The notes: a model not told the origin generated them from the sequence alone. Shown: positions 4,238 through 33,769, counted from the stretch's first letter. The stretch is DNA of 64,000 nt from an uncultured Clostridia bacterium (GCA_944376845.1 CALWDZ010000003.1:59758-123757); one strand, 5' to 3'. Numbers and translations are program-made.

Positions 4238-4545
4238 TTCATTCTGAACCTTTTTTGTCTGAGCCTTATCTTCTGCTATTCTGACATTATCTTCCGTCAT
4301 TCTGAGCGTAAGCGAAGAATCTCAACTTTACGTCACCCTGACCACTGCTCGCTTTGACGGAGAGGAAGGGTCTCTAAGAGGATGAGACTCTTCGTCAGCC
4401 GTCAGGGAAGCCACACTCAGAGTGACTAGAAAAATGTCATTCTGAACCCTTATGTCATTCTAAACAATCTTTTGTCATTCTGAGCGAAGCGAAGAATCTC
4501 AAAGATGTCTTACTTCGCTCGACATGACAAGAGAGAGTGACATAA
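4238..4545 (+). repeat. cluster of GC-rich short repeats (S modules GTCATTCTGAG..GAAGAATCTC at 4296-4323 and 4474-4500, degenerate copies, and a 95-nt L module at 4332-4426)
   Basis: Repeated GTCATTCTGA[GA]C words. The L module GTCACCCTGACC...CAGAGTGAC recurs at 30.9 and 31.6 kb. GC content is clearly above the flanks. Confidence 0.85.
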
Positions 4546-22011: not shown

Positions 22012-22905
22012 ATGTGTATAATGAAAATTATGGATAATATCAATAATAATTTTAGAAAAAAATTTAATGAAATAATAAAAAATAATAATTTTTCCGAAAT
22101 TGGCGAGCATAATTCGGTAATAAAAAGAATTAAAAATATAATTTCAAACACAAAGCCAAATAAAGAAAAATTTTTTGTTGCAGACGGAATTTGGGCGCAA
22201 AACCGTATTCTTGAAACAAATACAAATATTGATGCACTTATTATTTGTCCTGAATGTGTTTACACCAATGAAGCGGTTATGATTATTGAAAAACTGATGC
22301 AAAAAACCACAAATCGCTACATAGTTTCAAAAAAGACATATGAAAAAATTGCAGAAAGAGATAAACCAGACGGGCTTATGAGCATTGCTAAACTGCCTAT
22401 GCCTGAAATAGCAAAATTTAAACCACATAAAAAAAGTATTATTTTGGTACTAGATGGCATTGAAATACCGGGCAATATTGGCACAATGCTTCGTGCTTGT
22501 GATGGTGCTGGCGTTGAAGCGGTGTTTATATGTAATCGTCGTGCAAGACTAACACATCCAAAACTCATAAAAGGCAGTATGGGTGCAGTTCTAACTATTC
22601 CAATGTATGAATTTGAAGATGTCGCATCGTGTTACAAATTTTTAGAAGATAACAATTACACGATATTTTTGGCTGATACTCGTGCAAAAAACACTTATTT
22701 TACTCAAAAATATCCGTCTCACACTGCCTTTGTTATGGGCAATGAACGTCATGGCATATCACGTGAATGGTATACTTATCCAGTTGAAATGATTTCAATA
22801 CCAATGCTTGGGAAATGCGACTCATTAAATGTCGGAGTATCTGCCACAATACTTATATATGATGCTTCAATGAAACTTAGGTCATCGGTCATCAAAGTAA
22901 TCTAA
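22012..22905 (+). CDS. TrmH/SpoU family RNA 2'-O-methyltransferase
   Basis: LVLDGIEIPGNIGTMLRACDGAGV, FVMGNERHGIS and SLNVGVSATILIYD are SPOUT motifs 1-3. Start codon uncertain. Confidence 0.8.
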   Translation: MCIMKIMDNINNNFRKKFNEIIKNNNFSEIGEHNSVIKRIKNIISNTKPNKEKFFVADGIWAQNRILETNTNIDALIICPECVYTNEAVMIIEKLMQKTTNRYIVSKKTYEKIAERDKPDGLMSIAKLPMPEIAKFKPHKKSIILVLDGIEIPGNIGTMLRACDGAGVEAVFICNRRARLTHPKLIKGSMGAVLTIPMYEFEDVASCYKFLEDNNYTIFLADTRAKNTYFTQKYPSHTAFVMGNERHGISREWYTYPVEMISIPMLGKCDSLNVGVSATILIYDASMKLRSSVIKVI

Positions 22906-23737: not shown

Positions 23738-26700
23738 ATGAAATCTTTAAAAACTAAGATAGCCACCGTATTTAGTTTTATATGCCTAGCACTGTCAATG
23801 GCAGTGTTTGGCGTTTTTTCTGCAATCAATATACAAAATAATACCAATGGTCAACTTGGCTACATAGATAAAACTTGCTACATACAAAATTCGTCTGGAA
23901 GTAAAACATTTTACTCCACAATAGAAAAGGCTTATGCTAGTGCCACCGATGGTGACGCTATTTGTGTTTTTGAGGATATATCACTTTCAGCGGACTTTTC
24001 GGTTGAAAAAAACATATCACTTATGGCGGTTTCTTCAGATGTTACACTAAATCTTTCAGGATACAACATTGTTATTGGTAGTGGCAACACACTCACTTTG
24101 GGTGGTGGCTTAAATACATTAACACTTTCTTCAAGTTCAAATAGTACAATACAAAATGAAGGCACATTAAATGTCTATGGTGGAATTATTTCAAGTGCGG
24201 AAATTACCAATATGGGCGAATTGACATTTTTTGGCGGACAAGTAGATACCATAGCAAATACAGGACTTGTCACACTTTCGCAGTCTGCACAAATCAATAC
24301 AATACAAACAACACAACAAACCGCAGGAGAAACCGATGCGGGAATTTTTGTTTCTTCAAACTTTGTAGCAACTTCACCAATACAACTTATTATAAGTGGC
24401 GGAACACCTACACCGGGTCAACAAGTTGCATATTTTCAAGAGTTGGCAGATGCACAAAATTTTGCGGACTATTTCACCTTGACGAACTCTGGATATTTCT
24501 TGCACACTTCGGGCAATTCACTTTTAATAGGTCAATACATCACACCACCAACAGTAAGTGGACAATCTACTTTCATGTATGATGGTACTTTAAAGACATT
24601 GCGATTTAGTGGTTTAACATCATTAATGAGTGTTTCGGGCGACACACAGACTAATGCTGGAGATTACACCGCAACGGTATCACTTACCGATAAAACTAAT
24701 TATCGTTGGTCAGATACAAGAGATAGTGTTGATAAAGAATTCCGTTGGAGCATTGACCCTGCACAACTTGAATATCCAACAGTTGAACAAGATGAATTTA
24801 CATATAACACTCAATCACATTCACTTGTATTTAGTGGATTAAATAAGGATTTAATGGAGGTTAGTGGAACAACATCTGCAACAAATGTTGGAACATATGC
24901 AGCACGTGTAAGTCTTAAAGATAAGGTAAATTACACATGGGTAGATGGTGAAACTGGTGATGTAACATATCCATGGACAATAAACAAACGTCAATTAACT
25001 ATTCCAACCGCTAATCCAGCAAGTTATACATACACAGGGTCTGTTATAACTGCAACTTATACAAACCCAGATTCCGAGAATATAACACTTGGCGGGGATT
25101 TGACTGCGACAGTGGTTGGCAGTTACACCGCAACGGCGACAATAAAAGACACTGCAAACAATGAATGGACAGATGGAACAACATTAGTTAAAAATATTGA
25201 ATGGTCAATCACAAAAGCCGATCTTTTGGCACCAGATGGGCTCATATGGATACCATCTGAAGATAAATCGTCAGCAACGGCAAGATGGAATGCTGTGTCA
25301 GGTGGACAGTCATACACAGTTACAGTACTTGTCAATGGTTTACCAAGCGATCTTACAAAGACTATAAATTCAACAGAAGTTAACTTCACATCAACTGAAC
25401 TTAATGCGCTAGACAACGGCACATATACCTTCCGCGTTCAAGCAATTGGCAATTCTAACTACAACGATAGTCCTACAGCAACCTCGGGCAACTTGTATAG
25501 ACTTGTCTACATGACAAACGATGGTACAAGTACAGTCCATGCAAGACAGTACTATACACAAGGACAAAGCATATCAGCACCTAGTAAACCATCACGCACA
25601 GGCTACAACTTTATCGGTTGGGCAACTACAAACACGGCAACATCAGATAACTTGCCATCAACCGCCACAGAATCAGATACATACTATGCAGTATGGAGAG
25701 CAATTTCATATAATATATCCATTAACAACGCAAGTGGCACTGGTGGTTCTGTAGCACCTTCAACCTATACTACATCTGCAAAAGATCAGAGAATAACAAT
25801 AACAGAGCCAACACGTGTGGGCTACACATTTAACGGTTGGGCAATTAAAGTTGACGGTTCATATAGTGGAAAAGAACCAACAGTAAGCGGAACAACACTC
25901 ACAATACCAGCAAATTGCTATGGTAACATTACTCTTACTGCAACTTGGACAGCAAGACAATATAATATTACTTTAAATCAAAACAGTGGCACTGGTGGTA
26001 CTATCAATACAGCAACATATAATACCTCAACCTCAAGTCAGACAAGAACATTAACAAACCCAACAAGAGCAGGTTATGAATTTGCTGGTTGGGCAATTAA
26101 AGTTGACGGTTCATATAGTGGAAAAGAACCAACAGTAAGCGGAACAACACTCACAATACCAGCAAATTGCTATGGTAACATTACTCTTACTGCAACTTGG
26201 ACAGCAAGACAATATAATATTACTTTAAATCAAAACAGTGGTACTGGTGGTTCTATCAACACAGCAACATATAATACCTCAACCTCAAGTCAGACAAGAA
26301 CATTAACAAACCCAACAAGAGCAGGTTATAGATTTGCTGGTTGGGCAATTAAAGTTGACGGTTCATATAGTGGAGAAGCACCAACAGTAAGCGGAACAAC
26401 ACTTACAATACCAGCAAATTGCTATGGTAATATTACCCTTACTGCAAATTGGACATTGGCTATTTACACCATTACATTTGAAAGAAATAGTGGTACATGG
26501 GCAAGTGGTTACCCTGTACCAAAATCCTACAATATAAATTCAGGTGAAATCACATTACCAACAGCAGACAATATCTATCGTACAAACGATATCTTCTCAG
26601 GTTGGTATACTTCATCCACCTTCTCAGGAGATCCTGTAACAAGCATTCCAGCAGGTTCAACCGGTAACAAAACCTATTATGCACAATGGACAGAGGCTGC

Positions 26701-29053
26701 GGTATATAACACAACCCGTAACTTAGGTTATAGTGACCTTACAACTGCAATAGAAAAGGCTAATGCGGGCGAAACCTTGGATGTCTTGAGTAATTTGACA
26801 TCTACTGAAACTTATATTGTAGATAAATCTCTTACAATTCAAGCAAATACAAATGATGTTGAAGTGGAGGGCTCATTTAATGTTTCCGTAGGACATCTCA
26901 TTTTGGGTGGTGGAGCGAAAAGTTTAACCATAACAAGTTCAGTTGATGCAATAACTATTTCGGGTACCGCAAATTTAACCACTAATAATCTCATTGTAAA
27001 TGTCACTACAAAATCTTCTGCAATAGTTAGCACAACTACTGGTGAAATAAATCTAGTAGGTGGAAAGATGGATGCAGTTAATCCTTATAGTCTTTCTAAT
27101 AATGTTTATTGTATAGAAGTTTCTGCTGGCACTTTGACAATAAGTAATGTTATGATAAATTCTGATACAAAATATGTTTCTTTATACAATAGTGGAGCAG
27201 AAGTGTATATAAATGGGACACAAACCATTATATATGGGATTGACAACTCTATTGGAACAATGACTATAAATGATGGTGAAATATTCAATACTTCGTCATC
27301 CAGTAGTGCAATCGACAATTCTGGCACTTTGACTTTATACGGAGGAACTATAACTGCTGGAAAGTGGGCTGTGATTAGTGGTGGAGATGGATATGGGATC
27401 TCAAATTCGGGAACTCTAAAAATTAATGATGATGTAACAATATCAGGTGGTGATAGTGGTTTATATATTGATTCTGGCTTGACAGAAATTAGTAAGGGTT
27501 CAATCAAAGGAAATCTGTACGGAATTTATTGTATAGGTGGAGATATTAATATATCAGGAGGATCATTCATAGGTACTCAAACTGCTGGAATTTACAATGA
27601 TGGTGGAAACATAAATATTTCGGAAATGACAATGATAGTAGAAATTTCATCTGATAATTATGGAATTTTTAATAGACAAGGTACGATTGAAATCTCAGCA
27701 GGTACAGTAACTGGTGAAGTAGGAATACGAAATGCTCACGAATATAGTACCGTTTCTTATATAGTAGCTACATATGCGACATTAACTGTTTCAGGTACAG
27801 CTAATATAATAGGAACACAATATGGAATAGAAAATGAAGGGCAAGGCTCACTGTATGTAAAAGGAGGAATAATAAAAGGTTCATCCACCACCTCATCGAG
27901 AGGTATTTCTATAGATACTTATTTAGACGTTAACCAAGGCGATGTTGATACAGCTATTATAGAAATATCAGGTGGAGAGATATCAGGATATCAAGGAATT
28001 AATACTAATCATTGGTTAGATATTGATGATAGTAATGGTAAAGTGTATATATCTGGTGGAAGTGAACCTGATAATTCTACCGATAATAATATAAAGGCAG
28101 CAGGAATTTATTATTATCCGTCAGCTTATACTGCTGATAATAATATTTCTGCTGGAACTATCAATGGCTACTATGGTATTTACGTGTCTGGATCCACTAG
28201 TAATGATTCTTTCTCTTTAGTTATAAGCGGTACAGCAGAAATTGTAGGTACACAATACGGAATATATAACGAATCAAGCGGTACCGTCAATATTCGTGGT
28301 GGAACAGTTACTGCAAATGGAAATGGTGGTAGAGGAATAGAAAACTCTTCTGGTATTGTCAACATCAGTGGTGGAAAGATACAAACAACTGGTAAAGCTG
28401 CTTTCTCTATATACAATTATGATGGAACAGTTGATATATCGTCTAAAGCACAAGTCACAGCAGTATATAGAGGAATTTATAGTAGAGGTAGTTCAAGTAA
28501 TGTAACTATAAGTGGTGGGACAGTTACTGTAACTGGATCTAGTGGTAGAGGAATACATAACTCTTCTGGTAGTGTTACAATCAGTGGTGGAACGGTACGA
28601 ACAACTAGTAGTACATCTACTTACTCTATATACAATTCAAATGGAACAGTTGATATATCGTCTAAAGCACAAGTCACAGCAGCATATAGAGGAATTTATA
28701 GTACAGGTAGTTCAAGTAATGTAACTATAAGTGGTGGAACGATAAATGGTAGCACTTATTGTATCTATTTAGATTCATCAGCTACACTTAATCTTAGTGG
28801 TTCTCCTACTTTCAGTGGGAGTAGAAGAATTCACTGCAATACTACATTAAATACAAGTGTTCCACATAATGCACCTATTTATGTTTCATCTCCTTTAAGC
28901 CTTAGTTCAACTATTAGGTTATCCGCTAGCTCAAATGGATATATTGTTAGGGGGTCTATCTCTTCTTTGGATCAATATTTTAGTGCTTATTCTGGTAGTA
29001 TTAGTAGTCCAATTTATTCTATGGGAACGTATGGTCTTAGGTATAGTGCATAA
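23738..29053 (+). CDS. giant (1771 aa) cell-surface adhesin-like protein
   Basis: N-terminal anchor, then MBG-like repeats (NAGDYTATVSL..NY), an Fn3-like module and six Listeria-Bacteroides (InlB B-type) repeats (PTRTGYxFxGWA). About 750 aa of G-rich beta-helix-type repeats follow (ISGG, GIYN.GG). Confidence 0.85.
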   Translation: MKSLKTKIATVFSFICLALSMAVFGVFSAINIQNNTNGQLGYIDKTCYIQNSSGSKTFYSTIEKAYASATDGDAICVFEDISLSADFSVEKNISLMAVSSDVTLNLSGYNIVIGSGNTLTLGGGLNTLTLSSSSNSTIQNEGTLNVYGGIISSAEITNMGELTFFGGQVDTIANTGLVTLSQSAQINTIQTTQQTAGETDAGIFVSSNFVATSPIQLIISGGTPTPGQQVAYFQELADAQNFADYFTLTNSGYFLHTSGNSLLIGQYITPPTVSGQSTFMYDGTLKTLRFSGLTSLMSVSGDTQTNAGDYTATVSLTDKTNYRWSDTRDSVDKEFRWSIDPAQLEYPTVEQDEFTYNTQSHSLVFSGLNKDLMEVSGTTSATNVGTYAARVSLKDKVNYTWVDGETGDVTYPWTINKRQLTIPTANPASYTYTGSVITATYTNPDSENITLGGDLTATVVGSYTATATIKDTANNEWTDGTTLVKNIEWSITKADLLAPDGLIWIPSEDKSSATARWNAVSGGQSYTVTVLVNGLPSDLTKTINSTEVNFTSTELNALDNGTYTFRVQAIGNSNYNDSPTATSGNLYRLVYMTNDGTSTVHARQYYTQGQSISAPSKPSRTGYNFIGWATTNTATSDNLPSTATESDTYYAVWRAISYNISINNASGTGGSVAPSTYTTSAKDQRITITEPTRVGYTFNGWAIKVDGSYSGKEPTVSGTTLTIPANCYGNITLTATWTARQYNITLNQNSGTGGTINTATYNTSTSSQTRTLTNPTRAGYEFAGWAIKVDGSYSGKEPTVSGTTLTIPANCYGNITLTATWTARQYNITLNQNSGTGGSINTATYNTSTSSQTRTLTNPTRAGYRFAGWAIKVDGSYSGEAPTVSGTTLTIPANCYGNITLTANWTLAIYTITFERNSGTWASGYPVPKSYNINSGEITLPTADNIYRTNDIFSGWYTSSTFSGDPVTSIPAGSTGNKTYYAQWTEAAVYNTTRNLGYSDLTTAIEKANAGETLDVLSNLTSTETYIVDKSLTIQANTNDVEVEGSFNVSVGHLILGGGAKSLTITSSVDAITISGTANLTTNNLIVNVTTKSSAIVSTTTGEINLVGGKMDAVNPYSLSNNVYCIEVSAGTLTISNVMINSDTKYVSLYNSGAEVYINGTQTIIYGIDNSIGTMTINDGEIFNTSSSSSAIDNSGTLTLYGGTITAGKWAVISGGDGYGISNSGTLKINDDVTISGGDSGLYIDSGLTEISKGSIKGNLYGIYCIGGDINISGGSFIGTQTAGIYNDGGNINISEMTMIVEISSDNYGIFNRQGTIEISAGTVTGEVGIRNAHEYSTVSYIVATYATLTVSGTANIIGTQYGIENEGQGSLYVKGGIIKGSSTTSSRGISIDTYLDVNQGDVDTAIIEISGGEISGYQGINTNHWLDIDDSNGKVYISGGSEPDNSTDNNIKAAGIYYYPSAYTADNNISAGTINGYYGIYVSGSTSNDSFSLVISGTAEIVGTQYGIYNESSGTVNIRGGTVTANGNGGRGIENSSGIVNISGGKIQTTGKAAFSIYNYDGTVDISSKAQVTAVYRGIYSRGSSSNVTISGGTVTVTGSSGRGIHNSSGSVTISGGTVRTTSSTSTYSIYNSNGTVDISSKAQVTAAYRGIYSTGSSSNVTISGGTINGSTYCIYLDSSATLNLSGSPTFSGSRRIHCNTTLNTSVPHNAPIYVSSPLSLSSTIRLSASSNGYIVRGSISSLDQYFSAYSGSISSPIYSMGTYGLRYSA
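25835..26460 (+). repeat. 252-bp (84-codon) tandem repeat, about 2.5 copies, first two about 98 percent identical
   Basis: GGTTGGGCAATTAAAGTTGACGG recurs at 25835, 26087 and 26339. Only 5 or 6 substitutions separate copies 1 and 2. Confidence 0.9.
28405..28739 (+). repeat. 219-bp (73-codon) tandem duplication in the beta-helix region
   Basis: CTCTATATACAATT...AGTAATGTAACTATAAGTGGTGG recurs at 28405 and 28624 with few substitutions. Confidence 0.8.
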
Positions 29054-29081
29054 AAAATACTTTCTGTGGTCTCAACTACTT

Positions 29082-29126
29082 GTCATTCTGAGTCCAACTT
29101 CAACGCGTCGACCTGCGAAGAATCTC
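29082..29126 (+). repeat. S-module repeat with ACGCGTCGAC-containing insert
   Basis: GTCATTCTGAGTCCAACTTCAACGCGTCGACCTGCGAAGAATCTC is nearly identical to the copies at 30866 and 31536. Confidence 0.85.
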
Positions 29127-29159
29127 AAAAAATGCAAGGCATTTTGCCTTGCATTTTTG
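29126..29159 (+). terminator. intrinsic terminator of the adhesin gene
   Basis: ATGCAAGGC-ATTTT-GCCTTGCAT followed by T5. Confidence 0.8.
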
Positions 29160-29222
29160 TATTTTTACTTGTTAAAAGAAATATGCTATGTTATTATAAT
29201 CTTAGTTAACAAAGGAGAACTT

Positions 29223-30434
29223 ATGAATTTAAATTTCATAAATCAAATTGCTTTTTTTAAGAGAAAAACTGGCAACAAAGTGCGTAAACTAACCAGATTT
29301 AAAAACAAATCAAGTGTTGAGTATAATGCATCACTTAGTATTAAAGATATTTTGGAACCGCTTATTGAAAAAGATATGCGAGACATCAATAAGATGATTG
29401 AAACCCTTTTTCGTAAACTTATGGCAAATAGAATGGGGCTTTTTACCATTGTCAAATTTGATATGAAAAATTATTTTCCATCCATATCACTTCGCTATGC
29501 TTATGATTTTTTCATCAAAGATAAAATTAGCGAAAAATATCATCCACTTTTTGAAAATTATTGTGATAATGTTAAATACAATCTTCAAGGGCTTCCACCG
29601 TCAAGCAACTTTGCGGCAGTTATGTCAAAGGCACTAAAAGACGAACTATTTGCATTTTTTAAAGTTGATGGACTAACCGATTGCTTTTATTATGTAGATG
29701 ATTTTGTGCTATTATTCAAAAAGCGTGTAAATGAAATTTACATCAAATTTGGTATTTTGGAATGTATTAAAAATGTATTTTTTAAACGCAACAAATTACA
29801 ATATCAAAACAAAGTTAAGGCACATATTGATGACTCAAAATATACTTTTTTGGATGATACAAAACTTCCTGGCAGTTTTACATGGCTAGGTTATAAAATC
29901 GGCATTTCATATGGTTGGCAGGGCATTGGCATAACGCTAGATATGGCAGATTACAAGATGGAAATATATAGAAAAGCATTTTTTGACGCCGTTAAACAAA
30001 ATTATGCTGATGAGGAAAAGATGCGTTTGATGCTATATTCTAGCACTCGCAGTGTAGTTACAAAAATACACAAGCAGGGGAAACCAGATAAAAATGTCAG
30101 CATTTCACCATTTAAATTTTACAAAAACTTCAAAAAGTACCCAGAACTGGTAGGTGAAAACACTCGACGTTTTATGCAAGGAGTGATTGTAGATGCTTTT
30201 AGACAACAAACTATTGCCATGCCATTTTATTTAAAAGATAAAGATCCAAACAGCGGTTACAATCTATGGCATAACTTTTTTAACAGCAAAGCCATTGTAT
30301 TAAATAAAACATTTGGATGGTCTTATGAAAAACTTTATAACACCATGAAAAAATATTCCAAACTTGACATTCACTCAAAGTCATATGAACAACTTGCAAA
30401 AATGTATATAGATAATTTTGTGATAAAACTTTAA
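29223..30434 (+). CDS. stand-alone reverse transcriptase, class unassigned (retron/UG-Abi-like architecture)
   Basis: RBS AAAGGAGAA precedes the ATG at 29223. Motifs occur in order: FDMKNYFPSI, LQGLPPSSNFAAVMSKAL, CFYYVDDFVLLF (YVDD at 29691-29702), FTWLGYKI. A ~150-aa C-terminal extension has no endonuclease or maturase signature. Confidence 0.8.
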   Translation: MNLNFINQIAFFKRKTGNKVRKLTRFKNKSSVEYNASLSIKDILEPLIEKDMRDINKMIETLFRKLMANRMGLFTIVKFDMKNYFPSISLRYAYDFFIKDKISEKYHPLFENYCDNVKYNLQGLPPSSNFAAVMSKALKDELFAFFKVDGLTDCFYYVDDFVLLFKKRVNEIYIKFGILECIKNVFFKRNKLQYQNKVKAHIDDSKYTFLDDTKLPGSFTWLGYKIGISYGWQGIGITLDMADYKMEIYRKAFFDAVKQNYADEEKMRLMLYSSTRSVVTKIHKQGKPDKNVSISPFKFYKNFKKYPELVGENTRRFMQGVIVDAFRQQTIAMPFYLKDKDPNSGYNLWHNFFNSKAIVLNKTFGWSYEKLYNTMKKYSKLDIHSKSYEQLAKMYIDNFVIKL

Positions 30435-30441
30435 TATTTAT

Positions 30442-30470
30442 TTGTAAATTTTTTTAATTTGTGTTATATT
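30442..30470 (+). promoter_or_regulatory. sigma-70-type promoter TTGTAA-17 nt-TGtTATATT
   Basis: -35 at 30442-30447, extended -10 at 30462-30470, 8 nt after the RT stop codon. Confidence 0.5.
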
Positions 30471-30476
30471 ATGTTT

Positions 30477-30570
30477 AAGGTTGCGAGAGCGACTGAATTA
30501 CCCGAATTCGAAACAAGATCTCAGATGTTGTTTCATGCGGGTGGGGCTGCGGCGCCACCCCTTTTTTTTT
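30477..30570 (+). ncRNA. candidate ~95-nt small RNA (or structured RT 3' UTR) ending in a strong intrinsic terminator
   Basis: Bounded by the promoter above and by a GC-rich hairpin at 30538-30561 plus T9. Internal hairpins GAATT-ACCCG-AATTC and GAAACA..TGTTTC. No RBS for the 33-codon ORF it contains. Confidence 0.4.
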
Positions 30571-30696
30571 AAAACTAAAAAATAACTCTTGATAGTTTCG
30601 TTTACTGCCAAGCGTGTCCGCACAGTTACGTACGTTTGTACGCGCCTGCGCGGACACACTTGTCGAGCCTTACTCTCAAGGTTATTTTTTAGTTTT
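30571..30696 (+). repeat. 126-nt multi-helix element A1 (family with 52329-52454)
   Basis: 16-bp terminal stem AAAACTAAAAAATAAC/GTTATTTTTTAGTTTT, junction motif CGTTTACTG, inner stem GTGTCCGC/GCGGACAC, core hairpin CGTAC-GTTT-GTACG, junction motif GTCGAGCCT. Confidence 0.8.
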
Positions 30697-30735
30697 AAAT
30701 ATTATTTAGCCTTGTCTTTCTTCGCAAAAACGATG

Positions 30736-30781
30736 TGCGCGGACTTGTCGAGCCTTACTCTCAAGGTTATTTTTTAGTTTT
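30736..30781 (+). repeat. partial second copy (3' half) of element A1
   Basis: TGCGCGGAC-TTGTCGAGCCTTACTCTCAAGGTTATTTTTTAGTTTT duplicates 30647-30696 with a 4-nt deletion. Confidence 0.8.
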
Positions 30782-30795
30782 AAATATACTATTTA

Positions 30796-31066
30796 GTCAC
30801 CCTGACCGCTCTCAGACCACTTGTCATTCTGAGGAGCGAAGCGACGTGAGAATCTCATCATCTTGTCATTCTGAGCCCAACTTCAACGCGTCGACCTGCG
30901 AAGAATCTCTATCATATGTCACCCTGACCACTGGCCCGCTTTGATGGAGAGGAAGGGTCTCAACTATAAGAGATCCTTCGTCAGCCGTCAAGGAAGCCAC
31001 ACTCAGAGTGACTAAAAAAATTGTCATTCTGAGCCTCGACCCGCAGAGACGGAGACGAAGAATCTC
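30796..31066 (+). repeat. repeat block left of GIY-YIG (S and L modules; contains the left ~177-bp direct repeat at 30821-30997)
   Basis: Near-identical to 31491-31666. Confidence 0.9.
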
Positions 31067-31086
31067 TTTAAGCATTTGCCAAATAT

Positions 31087-31401
31087 ATGAATTTGTGTAA
31101 TAATCTTACTATGTATTATGTTTACATTTTATCCAATAAAAACAATACGGTTTTATACATTGGAGTTACAAATAATTTGGTAAGAAGAGTTTATGAACAT
31201 AAACAAAAATTTGTTCAAGGTTTTACAAAAACTTATAATGTAGACAAACTTGTTTATTATGAAATTTTGTATGATCCATATAATGCAATTACAAGAGAAA
31301 AACAATTGAAAGGATTGAAAAGAAAGAAAAAAGATATGCTAATAAATAATTTTAATCCGGATTGGCACGATTTATATCAAGATATTTGTAATAGCGTATG
31401 A
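31087..31401 (+). CDS. GIY-YIG nuclease family protein (small UPF0213/COG2827-type)
   Basis: YYVYILSNKNNTVLYIGVTNNLVRRVYEH...AITREKQLKGLKRKKK is the GIY-YIG core. The start may be the ATG at 31111. Confidence 0.85.
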   Translation: MNLCNNLTMYYVYILSNKNNTVLYIGVTNNLVRRVYEHKQKFVQGFTKTYNVDKLVYYEILYDPYNAITREKQLKGLKRKKKDMLINNFNPDWHDLYQDICNSV

Positions 31402-31700
31402 GATCCTTCGTCAGCCGTCAAGGAAGCAGTTCTCAGGATGACACACACAGTCTTCTGAGCATATTTTTCTGTCATTCTGAGCGTACTTTTTTGTCATTCT
31501 GAGGAGCGAAGCGACGTGAGAATCTCATCATCTAGTCATTCTGAGCCACACTCCAACGCGTCGACCTACGAAGAATCTCTATCATATGTCACCCTGACCG
31601 CTCCCCGCTTTGACGGAGAGGAAGGGTCTCAACTATAAGAGATCCTTCGTCAGCCGTCAAGGAAGCAGTTCTCAGGATGACACACACAGTCATTCTGAGT
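31399..31700 (+). repeat. repeat block right of GIY-YIG (contains the right ~177-bp direct repeat at 31491-31666 and a 60-nt segment duplicated at 31401 and 31640)
   Basis: Direct sequence comparison. The GIY-YIG stop codon is the first triplet of the block. Confidence 0.9.
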
Positions 31701-31704
31701 CAAG

Positions 31705-32166
31705 TCACACGGCATCGTCAGAAATGTGATGAGTTTTATTCTTTAAACAAAATAGAGCGTATAAAGGTACTGATTTTATGTTGTTTTCAAAACCAAAATT
31801 TTTAGATGAAACTCTAATAGAGTAGATAGGATTATATTTTTTTACAAACACACCAAGACTTTTTGCTTGGACATTGTCTACATATTTGCATTCAATTGGG
31901 ACTATACCATTCTCTAACTGAATAACAAAGTCAAGTTCAGCCTTTCCATTGGACTCCCAATAATATGGTTCAAGCCCAATTGAAATAAGTTGTTGCATAA
32001 CATAGTTTTCAGATATTGCACCTTTGGCATCGCTTGACAACATATCCATTAAAATATTTTGATAGTTTAAATTTAAACTATTTGATAGCAAGCCTACATC
32101 ACTCATATATATTTTATAACTTAATAAATCTTCATAAATTTTTAAAGGCATCAATTTAAGAAGCAT
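31705..32166 (-). pseudogene. C-terminal remnant of a DUF4143-type AAA ATPase
   Basis: Only the ~150-aa C-terminal region is present (…AELDFVIQLENGIVPIECKY…). The ~250-aa ATPase part has no room before gltX. Confidence 0.6.
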
Positions 32167-32251
32167 ATCACAAAAAAGGGGAACAAGTCAAATATTTTTA
32201 CAAAAAGTGGAACGACTTTTTGTAGAAATTGTATATTTTTTGTCATTCAGT

Positions 32252-33769
32252 TTATTTGGTGTCCTTAGAAAGATATTTCATAAGTTCAATCTCATCTTCA
32301 TCAATAGGTTGTTCTTCCATATCAATTAAAGGTTCACCAAGGTCAATATTTAATGCATCAATGCTTGCTTGAATACGTTTAAGTGATTCTTCTTTTCCAA
32401 GTAAATAAAGCATTTCACCAGCACCGCCAGGGGTGACTGTGTGAGCAGTAACAGCAATACGTACTGGCCACATAAGTTTGCCGATTTTCATTTCTTTATG
32501 CTCTGCATATTTTGCAAGTAGGGCATTCAAATTTTCAACTTCAAACTCTGTGCTTGCAAGAAGTGGGAAAATCTTAACCAAAATGTCACGAGACTGCAAT
32601 TTATCTAGTTTATTTTTCTTGTTTTCAAAAAGTGGTGTATCAACTTTAAAATCACTTAAAAATGCAAATAGTGGAACAATATCACTAAATTTGTTTATTC
32701 TACTTTGTGCAAGTGTGGATGCAAAGTCCCATTTATCAAAAATTGGTTTAGGAAGGTCTTTTATATATGGCATACTTGCATTTTTAAATGCTTCATGGTC
32801 AAGTTTTTGAATGTACTGAGCATTGAACCAGTCAAGTTTTTTATAATCAAAAATTGCATCACTCTTGACAATGCCATCCACATCAAAGTGCTCAATAAGT
32901 TCATCAAGCGAGAAAATTTCCTGTTCACTTTTTGGATTCCAGCCGAGCAGGCTAATGTAATTTACAATTGCGTCACTAAGGTATCCTTCTTCAAGTAAGT
33001 TATTGAAACTAACTGAGCCATGGCGTTTACTAAGTTTACTAACCGAGCCATCTTCATTTCTACCCATAATTGTAGAAAGGTGAATGGTTTTTGGTGGTTC
33101 CCAGCCAAAAGCCTCATACAAAAGTTGGTATTTTGGTGTAGAAGAGATATACTCTTTTCCACGAATCACATGTGTGATATTCATAAGGTGGTCATCTACA
33201 ACATTTGCAAAGTTATATGTTGGTAGTCCATCACGCTTTAAAAGCACTTGGTCATCAAGGCTTTCATTTTCAACGGTTATTGTACCATAAACTTCATCTG
33301 TAAATGTGGTTGTGCCACTAAGTGGAACTTTTTGGCGTATAACATATGGCTTTCCTTCACTCAAATTTTTTTCTATTTCTTCTTTTGAAAGATTTCTACA
33401 ATGTCTATTATATCCAAAGCCTTGTTCTTCTTTTTCATCAGGGTCGCAAAAACAATAATATGCATATCCGCTTTCTACAAGCATTTTGGCATATTTTTGA
33501 TAAATTTCTTTCCTTTCACTTTGTACATAAGGGCCATAGTTTCCGCCAATGTCGGGACCTTCATCGTGGTTTAGATGTGCTATTTTTAGAGTGTTATATA
33601 TAACCTCAGTGGCTCCTTCAACATAACGCTTTTGGTCAGTATCTTCAATTCTTAAAATAAACTTGCCATTATGGTGCTTTGCAAACAAAAAGGCAAATAG
33701 TGCCGTACGTAAATTACCTATGTGCATATATCCAGTTGGACTTGGTGCGAAACGTGTTCTAACTTCCAT
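32252..33769 (-). CDS. gltX: glutamate--tRNA ligase
   Basis: RTRFAPSPTGYMHIGNLRTALF (HIGH) and KLSKRHG (KMSKS). Confidence 0.95.
   Translation of the reverse strand: MEVRTRFAPSPTGYMHIGNLRTALFAFLFAKHHNGKFILRIEDTDQKRYVEGATEVIYNTLKIAHLNHDEGPDIGGNYGPYVQSERKEIYQKYAKMLVESGYAYYCFCDPDEKEEQGFGYNRHCRNLSKEEIEKNLSEGKPYVIRQKVPLSGTTTFTDEVYGTITVENESLDDQVLLKRDGLPTYNFANVVDDHLMNITHVIRGKEYISSTPKYQLLYEAFGWEPPKTIHLSTIMGRNEDGSVSKLSKRHGSVSFNNLLEEGYLSDAIVNYISLLGWNPKSEQEIFSLDELIEHFDVDGIVKSDAIFDYKKLDWFNAQYIQKLDHEAFKNASMPYIKDLPKPIFDKWDFASTLAQSRINKFSDIVPLFAFLSDFKVDTPLFENKKNKLDKLQSRDILVKIFPLLASTEFEVENLNALLAKYAEHKEMKIGKLMWPVRIAVTAHTVTPGGAGEMLYLLGKEESLKRIQASIDALNIDLGEPLIDMEEQPIDEDEIELMKYLSKDTK

What the first reader, a model, noticed from the sequence alone, without database searches (positions are those of the whole stretch)
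29054..32251. Possible functional pairing RT - ncRNA - GIY-YIG nuclease in a 3.2-kb hotspot between an adhesin gene and gltX
Seen in sequence: the RT, small-RNA-like unit, A1 element and GIY-YIG gene are all on the plus strand. They are followed by a 5'-truncated DUF4143 ATPase remnant on the minus strand, and the whole interval is saturated with GC-rich repeats. Established knowledge: many RT-based defence systems combine an RT, a non-coding RNA and a nuclease or other effector. Inference (weak): the GIY-YIG protein could be the effector of an RT-based system. Equally, this may be a junkyard of unrelated selfish elements.
Basis: inference. Interest (0 to 1): 0.55.

Follow-up and report, generated by a model that had tools for sequence, protein, structure and literature searches.

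The report
Lone DRT3a-like reverse transcriptase with small RNA
The reverse transcriptase and the small RNA beside it form a conserved two-part unit distantly related to the bacterial anti-phage system DRT3, whereas the GIY-YIG nuclease is not its partner but a separate gene embedded in short GC-rich repeats.

Summary
The three-way pairing is not supported.

- **RT and sRNA belong together.** The RT gene (29223-30434) is followed in every homologue by a ~93-nt structured sRNA (30477-30569) with its own promoter and terminator. This holds in three genomic contexts, including one where the pair is inverted between the same flanking genes.
- **The RT is a divergent Drt3a (UG3) relative.** The second RT of DRT3 (Drt3b/UG8) is absent from all loci examined, and the sRNA lacks the DRT3 ACACAC motif.
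- **Some lineages have lost catalytic aspartates** yet remain under strong purifying selection.
- **The GIY-YIG gene is never next to an RT homologue** (about 13 distinct loci). It lies in a 1.3-kb indel missing from a relative whose RT is 96% identical.
- **The GIY-YIG gene is bracketed by inverted 43-nt repeat units.** Homologues from high-GC bacteria are embedded in the same GTCAT-ended repeats.
- **The DUF4143 ORF is a pseudogene remnant.**

Verdict: a new variant of a known kind (lone Drt3a-like RT plus sRNA), next to unrelated repeat and nuclease debris.

The parts
29082..29126 (+). One 45-nt GC-rich repeat unit (GTCATTCTGAG...GAAGAATCTC) just after the adhesin stop codon. Not part of the RT module.
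29128..29158 (+). Intrinsic terminator hairpin of the adhesin gene. It also explains the sub-threshold Rfam SpF25 hit on the minus strand.
29169..29200 (+). Promoter-like site for the RT gene (TTGTTA-17-TATTAT with TG, overlapping TTAAAA-17-TATAAT). A ribosome-binding site (aaaggagaa) follows at 29211-29219.
29223..30434 (+). Reverse transcriptase gene, 403 aa. A divergent Drt3a/UG3-like class-2 UG/Abi RT with catalytic D80, D159 and D160 intact.
30442..30470 (+). Promoter of the sRNA (TTGTAA-17-TATATT with extended -10 TG). The start at 30477 is inferred from the -10 spacing and the conserved 5' AAGG. An equivalent promoter, 6 nt before AAGG, is found in 7 of 8 loci by script.
30477..30569 (+). 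Conserved ~93-nt sRNA. P1 hairpin with GAGA loop 30479-30494; single-stranded linker 30495-30509 (GAAUU-ACCC-GAAUU); P3 hairpin 30510-30534; terminator stem 30539-30560 plus U-tract.
30568..30699 (.). 132-nt near-perfect palindromic element (MITE-like), shared only with the closest relative L001. Not part of the conserved module.
30743..30787 (+). 45-nt exact duplicate of the right arm of the palindromic element.
30796..31067 (.). Cluster of GC-rich 43-45-nt repeat units in both orientations. Whole units called by the script: forward 30865-30909, 30918-30961, 31023-31066; reverse 30970-31012. Further partial units lie at 30796-30864.
31087..31401 (+). Small GIY-YIG nuclease gene. The likely true start is the ATG at 31111. 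The stop codon overlaps the next repeat unit.
31400..31704 (.). Second cluster of GC-rich repeat units. Reverse units at 31400-31442 and 31639-31681; forward units at 31535-31579 and 31588-31630; shorter GTCATTCTGAG starts at 31471, 31493 and 31689.
31705..32166 (-). 5'-truncated remnant (C-terminal ~150 aa) of a DUF4143 / PDC-S01-type ATPase gene. Homology to relative L001 resumes exactly at 32167.

Best explanation
The interval holds independent things that happen to be adjacent.

(1) SHOWN: a self-contained, conserved two-component module. It consists of a lone RT homologous over its full length to Drt3a (UG3, class-2 UG/Abi RTs) and a ~93-nt structured sRNA. The sRNA lies 39-87 nt after the RT stop codon and has its own extended -10 promoter and terminator. 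The pair moves and evolves as a unit.

INFERRED: the sRNA binds the RT and acts as its scaffold and template, as the ncRNAs of DRT3a, DRT9 and DRT10 do. The enzyme would copy a short single-stranded stretch just 3' of hairpin P1 (GAAUU-ACCC-GAAUU here) into repetitive cDNA. The biological role is probably anti-phage, but this is unproven. This module has no Drt3b partner and no ACACAC template.

(2) SHOWN: the GIY-YIG gene, the GC-rich 43-45-nt repeats and the DUF4143 fragment lie in a strain-specific 1.3-kb indel. The 132-nt palindrome lies just outside it and is shared only with the closest relative. None of these is linked to the RT in other genomes. INFERRED: the GIY-YIG nuclease belongs with the repeats that bracket it, in a REP/RAYT-like nuclease-repeat partnership. 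It is not an effector of the RT.
For: **RT-sRNA linkage**
- Only 9 protein clusters are close homologues of the RT.
- In all loci that extend past the RT stop codon, the sRNA follows the RT. The contexts are adhesin-RT-gltX, SpoU methylase-RT-DUF975 or other genes, and gltX-RT-adhesin with the RT-sRNA pair inverted.
- On a MAFFT alignment, 97.3% of cells are paired against 36-56% for slid controls. Thirteen of 25 pairs show compensatory changes, with 0 of 500 shuffles reaching this.
- The sRNA promoter is conserved.
- A covariance model of the sRNA finds a related RNA beside the ~30%-identical lone relatives, in other positions and orientations. L067: 32.6 bits, E 5e-5, abutting the RT stop codon on the opposite strand. 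L065: E 0.04. L066: E 0.095.

**Drt3a homology**
- The family profile hits 152 representative clusters. Of 78 aligned members, 74 match PADLOC Drt3a, best E 1e-46.
- The profile of that alignment hits PDB chain 9z6y 'Drt3a reverse transcriptase' at E 5.5e-29.
- Direct tblastn links the window RT to Drt3a genes that sit next to Drt3b genes: E 3.9e-23 and E 7e-13 in a Bacillus plasmid. The Drt3b identity of the neighbour was checked for the metagenome locus; the plasmid neighbour is annotated only as an RNA-directed DNA polymerase.
- The AlphaFold2 model has pLDDT 95.6, and all top Foldseek hits are RTs, with the best full-length TM-score 0.54 to DRT9.

**No Drt3b**: tblastn with a Drt3b protein finds nothing in the window or in L001-L021. 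The lone relatives also lack it.

**Selection**: dN/dS is 0.04-0.15.

**GIY-YIG not linked**
- No GIY-YIG gene in any RT locus.
- The region 30859-32166 replaces ~93 nt in L001.
- The gene is bracketed by inverted repeat units.
- All nine homologues at 45-54% identity from high-GC genomes sit among REP-like repeats. In seven of them these carry TGTCAT-type ends. Motif density is 7.7 per kb near the gene against 0.6 per kb farther away.
Against: - No expression, binding or cDNA data exist. The template role of the linker is inference.
- The A-B-A' direct repeat is only 3 nt long in three of eight sequences. In several sequences it cannot be told apart from a P2 hairpin, because GAATTC is palindromic.
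- The window RT itself does not reach the PADLOC Drt3a models, and its subfamily profile alone finds no PDB RT. The assignment rests on intermediates and on pairwise tblastn.
- Two or three lineages have lost catalytic residues (FSLENYF/YYINDF; YHLNEF; YYDDTF) yet remain under purifying selection. This argues that polymerisation is not always needed.
- The genomic neighbours are housekeeping genes rather than a defence island.
- A Drt3b gene elsewhere in the genome, outside the 64-kb window, cannot be excluded.
Confidence: 0.6

Rival explanations
1. The RT-sRNA pair is a domesticated, vertically inherited ribonucleoprotein with a non-defence cellular role. That role does not depend on DNA synthesis, at least in some lineages.
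For: - The module holds a conserved chromosomal position among housekeeping genes (gltX, SpoU methylase, BipA, rpoBC, RNase R) in several species.
- RT divergence is similar to that of era and yqfD.
- dN/dS is 0.04-0.15 even between two lineages whose YxDD and motif-A aspartates are replaced.
- No phage homologue was found, and the only plasmid hit is a canonical DRT3 locus.
Against: - All characterised relatives (DRT3, DRT9, DRT10, DRT2) are anti-phage systems whose function needs an active RT (papers 10.64898/2026.05.04.722794, 10.1101/2025.10.16.682844, PMC9226505).
- The catalytic triad is invariant in 78 wider family members and intact in the window.
- The RT tree disagrees with the host-gene tree, and the module is inverted in L012-L015.
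Confidence: 0.2
2. It is a canonical DRT3 system whose Drt3b (UG8) partner is encoded elsewhere in the genome.
For: The RT is homologous to Drt3a, and canonical DRT3 places its ncRNA at the 3' end of the operon (PMC9226505). Only the 64-kb window and flanks of 5-6 kb were searched.
Against: - No Drt3b in the window or in any of about 17 lone loci.
- All 30 or so canonical loci retrieved keep drt3b about 100-250 nt after drt3a.
- The sRNA has no ACACAC/CACACA motif, and the covariance model finds nothing in the canonical loci.
Confidence: 0.07
3. RT, sRNA and GIY-YIG nuclease form one three-part defence system, with the nuclease as effector.
For: All three are on the same strand within 2.2 kb. 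RT plus nuclease architectures exist elsewhere, for example in retrons and in Penelope-like elements (own knowledge).
Against: - GIY-YIG is absent from every other RT locus, including one whose RT is 96% identical.
- It is separated from the sRNA by a terminator, a palindromic element and a repeat array.
- It has its own promoter-like site.
- Its family has more than 7,800 members across phyla that track GTCAT-type repeats, not RTs.
Confidence: 0.03
4. The sRNA is an unrelated small RNA, or merely the RT gene's 3' UTR and terminator, and is adjacent by chance.
For: Much of the synteny could reflect vertical descent. Terminator covariation on its own is generic.
Against: - P1 and P3 also covary.
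- The sRNA has its own conserved promoter.
- Adjacency survives three different contexts and an inversion.
- Related RNAs lie next to 30%-identical RTs in other positions.
- There is only one copy in the window.
Confidence: 0.05
5. It is a retron: the RT plus an msr-msd RNA.
For: The only direct PADLOC and NCBIfam hits of the window RT are to retron RT models, at E 1.6e-6 to 1.5e-3. Retron RTs are among the top Foldseek hits.
Against: - The hits cover only the palm (aa 71-200) and lie far below family cut-offs.
- The wider family matches Drt3a far better.
- The RNA is downstream, only 93 nt long, and shows neither a1/a2 inverted repeats nor an msd hairpin.
- There is no effector gene.
Confidence: 0.02

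Closest known systems
DRT3 (Drt3a/UG3 + Drt3b/UG8 + ncRNA)
   Same: - The RT is homologous over its full length to Drt3a.
- The ncRNA is encoded in cis on the same strand, 3' of the RT coding region.
- The RT belongs to class 2 of the UG/Abi RTs.
   Different: - There is no Drt3b, which canonical DRT3 needs for immunity and for making the complementary DNA strand.
- The ncRNA directly follows the Drt3a-like gene, is only ~93 nt long, and lacks the ACACAC/CACACA template motif.
- The RT lacks the ~40-55 N-terminal residues of Drt3a and falls below the PADLOC Drt3a models.
- It is chromosomal, vertically inherited in gut Clostridia, and has catalytically degenerate lineages.
DRT9 (UG28) and DRT10 (UG17): class-2 RT plus ncRNA systems that make homopolymer or tandem-repeat cDNA
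   Same: - One RT plus one structured ncRNA.
- A candidate template is a short single-stranded stretch just 3' of a stable hairpin, with a possible A-B-A' repeat as in DRT10.
- DRT9 gives the best full-length structural match (TM-score 0.54).
   Different: - The ncRNA is downstream rather than upstream, and much smaller (93 nt against 137 nt for the DRT10 ncRNA measured in 10.1101/2025.10.16.682844).
- There is no SLATT effector.
- Sequence similarity to Drt9 and UG17 models is weaker than to Drt3a.
Retrons
   Same: An RT plus an adjacent ncRNA. The RT palm gives weak hits to retron RT models.
   Different: - No msr-msd architecture.
- The RNA is downstream.
- No effector gene.
- The wider family is Drt3a-like.
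REP/REPIN-RAYT partnerships (for the GIY-YIG gene and the repeats)
   Same: - A single small nuclease gene is bracketed by inverted copies of a short GC-rich intergenic repeat that is scattered in clusters through the genome.
- The association recurs across distant phyla.
   Different: - The protein is a ~96-aa GIY-YIG nuclease, not an IS200/IS605-type tyrosine (HUH) transposase.
- The repeat ends are TGTCAT(T/C)C..., not GTAG or CGTC tags.
- Mobility is untested.
Penelope-like elements (RT fused to a GIY-YIG endonuclease, in eukaryotes; own knowledge)
   Same: An RT and a GIY-YIG nuclease lie close together.
   Different: Here they are separate genes that never co-occur in other genomes. There is no fusion and there are no element boundaries.

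Membership tests
DRT3 | Drt3a (UG3) type reverse transcriptase | tested here: met
   Full-length homology. tblastn to Drt3a genes followed by a second RT gene gives E 3.9e-23 and 7e-13; that second gene was confirmed as Drt3b for the metagenome locus. The family profile hits proteins that PADLOC calls Drt3a. The wide-family profile hits PDB chain 9z6y (Drt3a) at E 5.5e-29. Caveat: the window protein alone does not reach the PADLOC Drt3a models.
DRT3 | Adjacent Drt3b (UG8) second reverse transcriptase | tested here: not met
   No Drt3b homologue in the 64-kb window or in L001-L021, and none next to the lone relatives. Positive control: Drt3b at E ~1e-120 follows the RT in canonical loci.
DRT3 | ncRNA at the 3' end of the operon with an exposed ACACAC/CACACA template motif | tested here: not met
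   A downstream ncRNA exists, but none of the nine aligned sRNAs contains the motif. The ACACAC copies in the interval lie in strain-specific repeats. Covariance model R1 finds nothing in the canonical DRT3 loci.
DRT3 | Active-site aspartates required for function | tested here: inconclusive
   They are intact in the window (D80, D159, D160) and invariant in 78 wider family members. They are replaced in the L002, L005 and L019 lineages, which remain under purifying selection.
DRT3 | Anti-phage activity | not testable with these tools
   Needs phage challenge assays.
Class-2 UG/Abi RT + ncRNA systems (DRT9/DRT10 type) | RT with a dedicated structured ncRNA encoded in cis | tested here: met
Class-2 UG/Abi RT + ncRNA systems (DRT9/DRT10 type) | Template with an A-B-A' repeat just 3' of a stable stem-loop | tested here: inconclusive
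   Direct repeats of 4-5 nt occur in five of eight linkers, including two that cannot form the alternative hairpin. The other three have only 3 nt. Per-sequence shuffle p-values range from 0.009 to 0.62.
Class-2 UG/Abi RT + ncRNA systems (DRT9/DRT10 type) | Repetitive cDNA product | not testable with these tools
   Needs cDNA immunoprecipitation and sequencing.
Retron | Retron-clade RT | tested here: not met
   Only palm-region hits at E 1.6e-6 or weaker. NCBIfam retron St85 scores 17.9 bits against a cut-off of 235.
Retron | msr-msd ncRNA flanked by a1/a2 inverted repeats, normally upstream of the RT | tested here: not met
   The RNA is downstream and has three simple hairpins with no terminal inverted repeats.
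   None of about 13 distinct RT loci has a GIY-YIG gene. The gene lies in an indel relative to L001.
Diversity-generating retroelement | Template repeat with a near-identical variable repeat in a target gene | tested here: not met
   There is no second copy of the sRNA sequence in the window, even when adenines are ignored (best other match 31 of 64 positions).
GIY-YIG nuclease superfamily (PF01541) | GIY-YIG catalytic domain with conserved Tyr, Arg, Glu and other core residues | tested here: met
   Pfam E 1.2e-17. Y11, Y13, G26, R34, E37, H38 and E59 are invariant in 24 homologues.
REP/RAYT-like nuclease-repeat partnership | Nuclease gene flanked by inverted copies of a dispersed short repeat, recurrently in unrelated genomes | tested here: met
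REP/RAYT-like nuclease-repeat partnership | The nuclease cleaves or mobilises the repeats | not testable with these tools
   Needs biochemistry, or population data on new insertions.
DUF4143 / PDC-S01 ATPase | Full-length AAA ATPase followed by DUF4143 | tested here: not met
   Only the C-terminal third is present (profile positions 295-435 of 439), so it is a pseudogene remnant.

The most novel reading that the evidence does not exclude
The RT-sRNA pair may be a minimal, telomerase-like DNA writer. A lone Drt3a-type RT would copy a lineage-specific 7-10-nt template just 3' of hairpin P1 into tandem-repeat DNA, without the Drt3b partner that canonical DRT3 needs. The predicted template is GAAUUACCC followed by the alignment segment GAAUU in this genome, giving (GGGTAATTC)n, and GAAUUAA in L019. 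In lineages that lost the catalytic aspartates, the same ribonucleoprotein would persist with a polymerase-independent role.

Separately, the small GIY-YIG family may be the long-sought partner nuclease of the GTCAT-ended REP-like repeats found across bacterial phyla.
Probability: 0.25. Interest if true: 0.8.

Novelty: new variant of a known kind. Interest (0 to 1): 0.6.

Why it matters
**For the RT field.** Canonical DRT3 needs two RTs: Drt3a copies an RNA template and Drt3b makes the complementary strand. A conserved clade of Drt3a-like RTs that carries only a small dedicated RNA raises two questions: what a lone Drt3a-type enzyme makes, and how that product acts. It gives a compact system (1.2-kb gene plus 93-nt RNA) for testing this.

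Members whose catalytic residues are lost, yet which are still under selection and still accompanied by the sRNA, hint at a role for the ribonucleoprotein beyond polymerisation.

**For annotation.** The result removes a tempting but false RT-nuclease pairing.

**For repeat biology.** The side observation that a very widespread ~96-aa GIY-YIG family sits inside GTCAT-ended repeats, in both low-GC Clostridia and high-GC bacteria, could explain the origin of a common class of intergenic repeats.

Tried and rejected
- **Rfam scan of 28500-32800** (E up to 1). The only hit was sub-threshold: SpF25, 30.3 bits against a gathering score of 48. It is explained by the adhesin terminator.
- **Retron reading.** Rejected: no msr-msd features and only weak palm hits.
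- **DGR reading.** Prompted by the recurring giant surface-protein neighbour. Rejected because the sRNA has no variable-repeat copy.
- **ACACAC template search.** Motifs occur at 30654, 31441 and 31680, but inside strain-specific repeats. They are not enriched in the window (24 observed against 27 expected).
- **P2 hairpin versus A-B-A' direct repeat in the linker.** Statistics were inconclusive.
- **First AlphaFold2 model from 9 sequences.** Poor (pLDDT 57.5). It was replaced by a 78-sequence model (pLDDT 95.6).
- **Subfamily profile alone against PDB.** No RT hit.
- **Covariance model of the sRNA in about 30 canonical DRT3 loci.** No significant hit.
- **Positive control for the DRT3 ncRNA downstream of drt3b** in gut and Bacillus loci. 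No clear ACACAC was seen, so that comparison rests on the literature.
- **Literature searches for a GIY-YIG/REP or MITE association.** Nothing relevant found.
- **tblastn of the RT against phage genomes.** No match.

Full report
**Observation.** The interval 29054-32251 is the space between the stop codon of a 1,771-aa adhesin-like gene (23738-29053, +) and gltX (32252-33769, -).
- An RT-like ORF at 29223-30434 (+), 403 aa, with motifs FDMKNYF, QGLPPSS and YYVDDF.
- A candidate small RNA at 30477-30569 (+).
- A 132-nt palindromic element at 30568-30699, with a 45-nt partial duplicate.
- A GIY-YIG gene at 31087-31401 (+) (Pfam E 1.2e-17).
- The C-terminal third of a DUF4143/PDC-S01 ATPase at 31705-32166 (-) (Pfam E 8.7e-21; PADLOC profile positions 295-435 of 439).
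- GC-rich repeats. GTCATTCTGAG with up to one mismatch occurs 18 times in the window against 0.65 expected, mostly at 30796-31067 and 31400-31704.

**Is the RT linked to the GIY-YIG gene?** No.

The RT has only nine close homologue clusters among 5.8 billion proteins. All come from uncultured gut Clostridia. I fetched their contigs.
- In L001 (RT 96% identical), L008/L009/L019 and L011, the order is adhesin-RT-gltX, with 180-520 nt between the RT and gltX.
- In L012-L015 the same two flanking genes are present but the RT is inverted between them.
- In L002-L006, L017 and L018 the RT follows a SpoU-type methylase and precedes unrelated genes.

None of these loci has a GIY-YIG gene, and local tblastn confirms this.

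Aligning the window with L001 shows continuous homology over 29115-30702 and 30743-30858, which resumes exactly at 32167. So 30859-32166 (repeats, GIY-YIG, repeats, DUF4143 fragment) replaces about 93 nt in the relative.

**What is conserved with the RT?** A small RNA.

In every locus that extends beyond the RT stop codon, a ~93-nt sequence beginning AAGG(U/C)U follows it by 39-87 nt. A MAFFT alignment of nine copies (seven distinct) folds into three helices:
- P1, 6 bp with a GAGA or UAAA loop;
- a 13-17-nt linker;
- P3, 10 bp;
- a terminator hairpin with a U-tract.

Across these helices, 97.3% of cells are paired, against 36-56% when partners are slid. Thirteen of 25 pairs carry compensatory changes, with 0 of 500 shuffles reaching this.

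A promoter of the form TTGnnn, 16-18 nt (mostly ending TGn), TAnnnT lies 6 nt before the AAGG in seven of eight loci by script and in the eighth by eye. The RNA is therefore probably transcribed on its own. No Rfam family matches it, and the window holds one copy.

The pair stays together through three genomic contexts and one inversion. This is the main evidence for a functional unit.

**What kind of RT is it?**

Pfam misses it, and PADLOC and NCBIfam give only weak retron-RT palm hits.

A profile of the subfamily searched against 1.84 billion representative proteins finds 152 clusters. Most are full-length matches of 430-470 aa. Of 78 aligned members, 74 match PADLOC Drt3a (best E 1e-46), with weaker hits to Drt9, UG17 and UG4. 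The profile of that alignment hits PDB chain 9z6y, 'Drt3a reverse transcriptase', at E 5.5e-29, and DRT9 next at 4.9e-11.

Direct pairwise evidence also exists.
- A Drt3a from a locus where a ~670-aa Drt3b (E ~1e-120) follows the RT aligns to the window RT over 406 residues (24.9% identity, E 3.9e-23).
- The window RT finds the first RT of a two-RT (DRT3-type) locus on a Bacillus bombysepticus plasmid (26.7% identity, 88% coverage, E 7e-13).

With the 78-sequence alignment, AlphaFold2 gives pLDDT 95.6. All top Foldseek hits are RTs, and the best full-length TM-score is 0.54, to DRT9.

So the protein is a divergent Drt3a (UG3)-like class-2 UG/Abi RT. It lacks the ~40-55 N-terminal residues of typical Drt3a.

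**How does it differ from DRT3?**

According to PMC9226505 and bioRxiv 10.64898/2026.05.04.722794, canonical DRT3 is drt3a-drt3b-ncRNA. Drt3a copies a conserved ACACAC loop into poly(dTdG). Drt3b makes poly(dCdA) without a nucleic-acid template. Both active sites are needed for defence.

Here the picture is different.
- No Drt3b exists in the window or in any flank of L001-L021.
- The nearest outgroup relatives at ~30% identity (P0281/P0279, P0134, P0278) are also lone.
- The sRNA has no ACACAC.
- The ACACAC copies in the interval lie in strain-specific repeats.
- The sRNA covariance model finds nothing in about 30 canonical DRT3 loci.

The model does detect related RNAs next to the lone outgroup RTs, in other arrangements:
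- on the opposite strand, abutting the RT stop codon, in L067 (32.6 bits, E 5e-5);
- about 480 nt downstream on the opposite strand in L065 (E 0.04);
- upstream on the same strand in L066 (E 0.095).

Together these define a lone Drt3a-like RT plus sRNA clade.

**Likely mechanism (inferred).**

In DRT3a, DRT9 and DRT10 the ncRNA is both scaffold and template. The template is a short single-stranded segment next to a stem-loop. In DRT10 it has an A-B-A' form that lets the product realign for repeat addition (10.1101/2025.10.16.682844).

In this sRNA the linker directly 3' of P1 reads:
- GAAUU-ACCC-GAAUU in the window;
- GAAUU-AA-GAAUU in L019;
- AAUC-UCAA-AAUC in L008;
- AUUU-AACC-AUUU in L005;
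- AAUU-ACCGUC-AAUU in L011.

In L001, L002 and L012 only 3 nt repeat. In several sequences a small hairpin explains the pattern equally well, because GAATTC is palindromic. Per-sequence shuffle p-values range from 0.009 to 0.62. I therefore regard tandem-repeat cDNA synthesis from this linker as a testable guess, not a result.

**Complications.**
- *Lost catalytic residues.* Independent assemblies show FSLENYF/YYINDF (L002-L004; L017 has YHINDF), YHLNEF (L005-L007, L018) and YYDDTF (L019) in place of FDxKNYF/YYVDDF. These genes keep the sRNA, and dN/dS stays at 0.04-0.08, including between the two degenerate lineages. The ribonucleoprotein may thus have a polymerase-independent role in some lineages. 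The window copy has all three aspartates, which are invariant in the wider family.
- *Genomic context.* Neighbours are housekeeping genes plus a giant surface-protein gene, not a defence island. RT divergence is similar to that of era and yqfD. This fits vertical descent.
- *Signs of turnover.* The RT tree disagrees with the host-gene tree. L012 is closer to the window than L008 by gltX, era and yqfD, but farther by RT. The module is also inverted in that lineage.

**The rest of the interval.**

The GC-rich units are 43-45 nt long and occur in both orientations and in clusters, including another cluster at 4296-4500. Most have the form GTCAYYCTGAG...GAAGRATCTC; a variant begins GTCACCCTGACC and ends GGTCTC.

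The GIY-YIG ORF is bracketed by a forward unit (31023-31066) and a reverse unit (31400-31442) that overlaps its stop codon. Its family has more than 7,800 members at E below 1e-10, with 65-75% identity across phyla.

In nine IMG/VR loci from genomes of 63-69% GC, homologues at 45-54% identity are again embedded in REPIN-like repeat pairs, seven of them with ends TGTCAT(T/C)CC... / ...GG(A/G)ATGACA. Motif density is 7.7 per kb within 200 nt of the gene and 0.6 per kb farther away. It is 0 next to distant phage-type GIY-YIG genes.

This looks like a nuclease-repeat partnership of the REP/RAYT kind. I found no paper describing it in the held library. That does not prove it is unpublished.

The 132-nt palindrome is shared only with L001. 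The DUF4143 ORF is a truncated remnant.

**Verdict.** The RT-ncRNA pairing is real and defines a new variant of a known kind: a lone Drt3a-like RT with its own small RNA. The GIY-YIG 'effector' idea is refuted. That gene belongs with the repeats.

Noticed in passing
window 31023-31442; also 4296-4500; loci L068-L076: The small GIY-YIG gene is bracketed by inverted 43-45-nt GTCAYYCTGAG...GAAGRATCTC units. Homologues at 45-54% identity from 63-69% GC genomes are embedded in repeat pairs, most with the same TGTCAT(T/C)C ends (7.7 motifs per kb near the gene against 0.6 per kb away). This suggests a REP/RAYT-like nuclease-repeat partnership across phyla. No paper was found.
   Followed up: partly
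RT homologues in L002-L004, L017 (YYINDF or YHINDF, FSLENYF), L005-L007, L018 (YHLNEF), L019 (YYDDTF): Catalytic aspartates of RT motifs A and C are replaced in two or three lineages. The gene stays full-length, keeps the sRNA, and shows dN/dS of 0.04-0.08.
   Followed up: partly
window 23738-29053; L001, L008, L011, L012-L015, L062-L065: The RT-sRNA module and its 30%-identical relatives nearly always lie next to a very large surface or adhesin gene (Flg_new, LRR_5 or Ig-like repeats). A DGR-type link was tested and not found in the window. The association remains unexplained.
   Followed up: partly
window 30568-30699 and 30743-30787: A 132-nt near-perfect palindrome (DNA fold -35.3 kcal/mol, z = -8.4) starts in the U-tract of the sRNA terminator, and its right arm is duplicated exactly over 45 nt. 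It is present only here and in L001. It is probably a MITE-like insertion.
   Followed up: partly
L012-L015 compared with the window: The RT-sRNA pair is inverted between the same two flanking genes (adhesin and gltX). In that lineage the RT is also more diverged than the host genes (67% against 74-89%), which suggests inversion or replacement of the module.
   Followed up: no
window 31076-31113: Homologues of the GIY-YIG protein start at the equivalent of Met9 (ATG at 31111). A promoter-like site, TTGCCA-17-AATAAT (31076-31104), would place the transcription start on that ATG, implying a leaderless mRNA.
   Followed up: no
window 22012-22905: A SpoU/MRM3-like methylase gene lies about 6 kb upstream of the RT. 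In L002-L006 its homologue directly abuts the RT, so the adhesin genes appear to be a variable insertion within an otherwise syntenic region.
   Followed up: no
L067 4780-4900; L008 and L019 downstream of the sRNA: GTCATTCTGAG- or GTCATTCCGAG-type repeat units also sit just after the sRNA terminator in other species. These repeats seem to accumulate at this kind of intergenic site independently.
   Followed up: no
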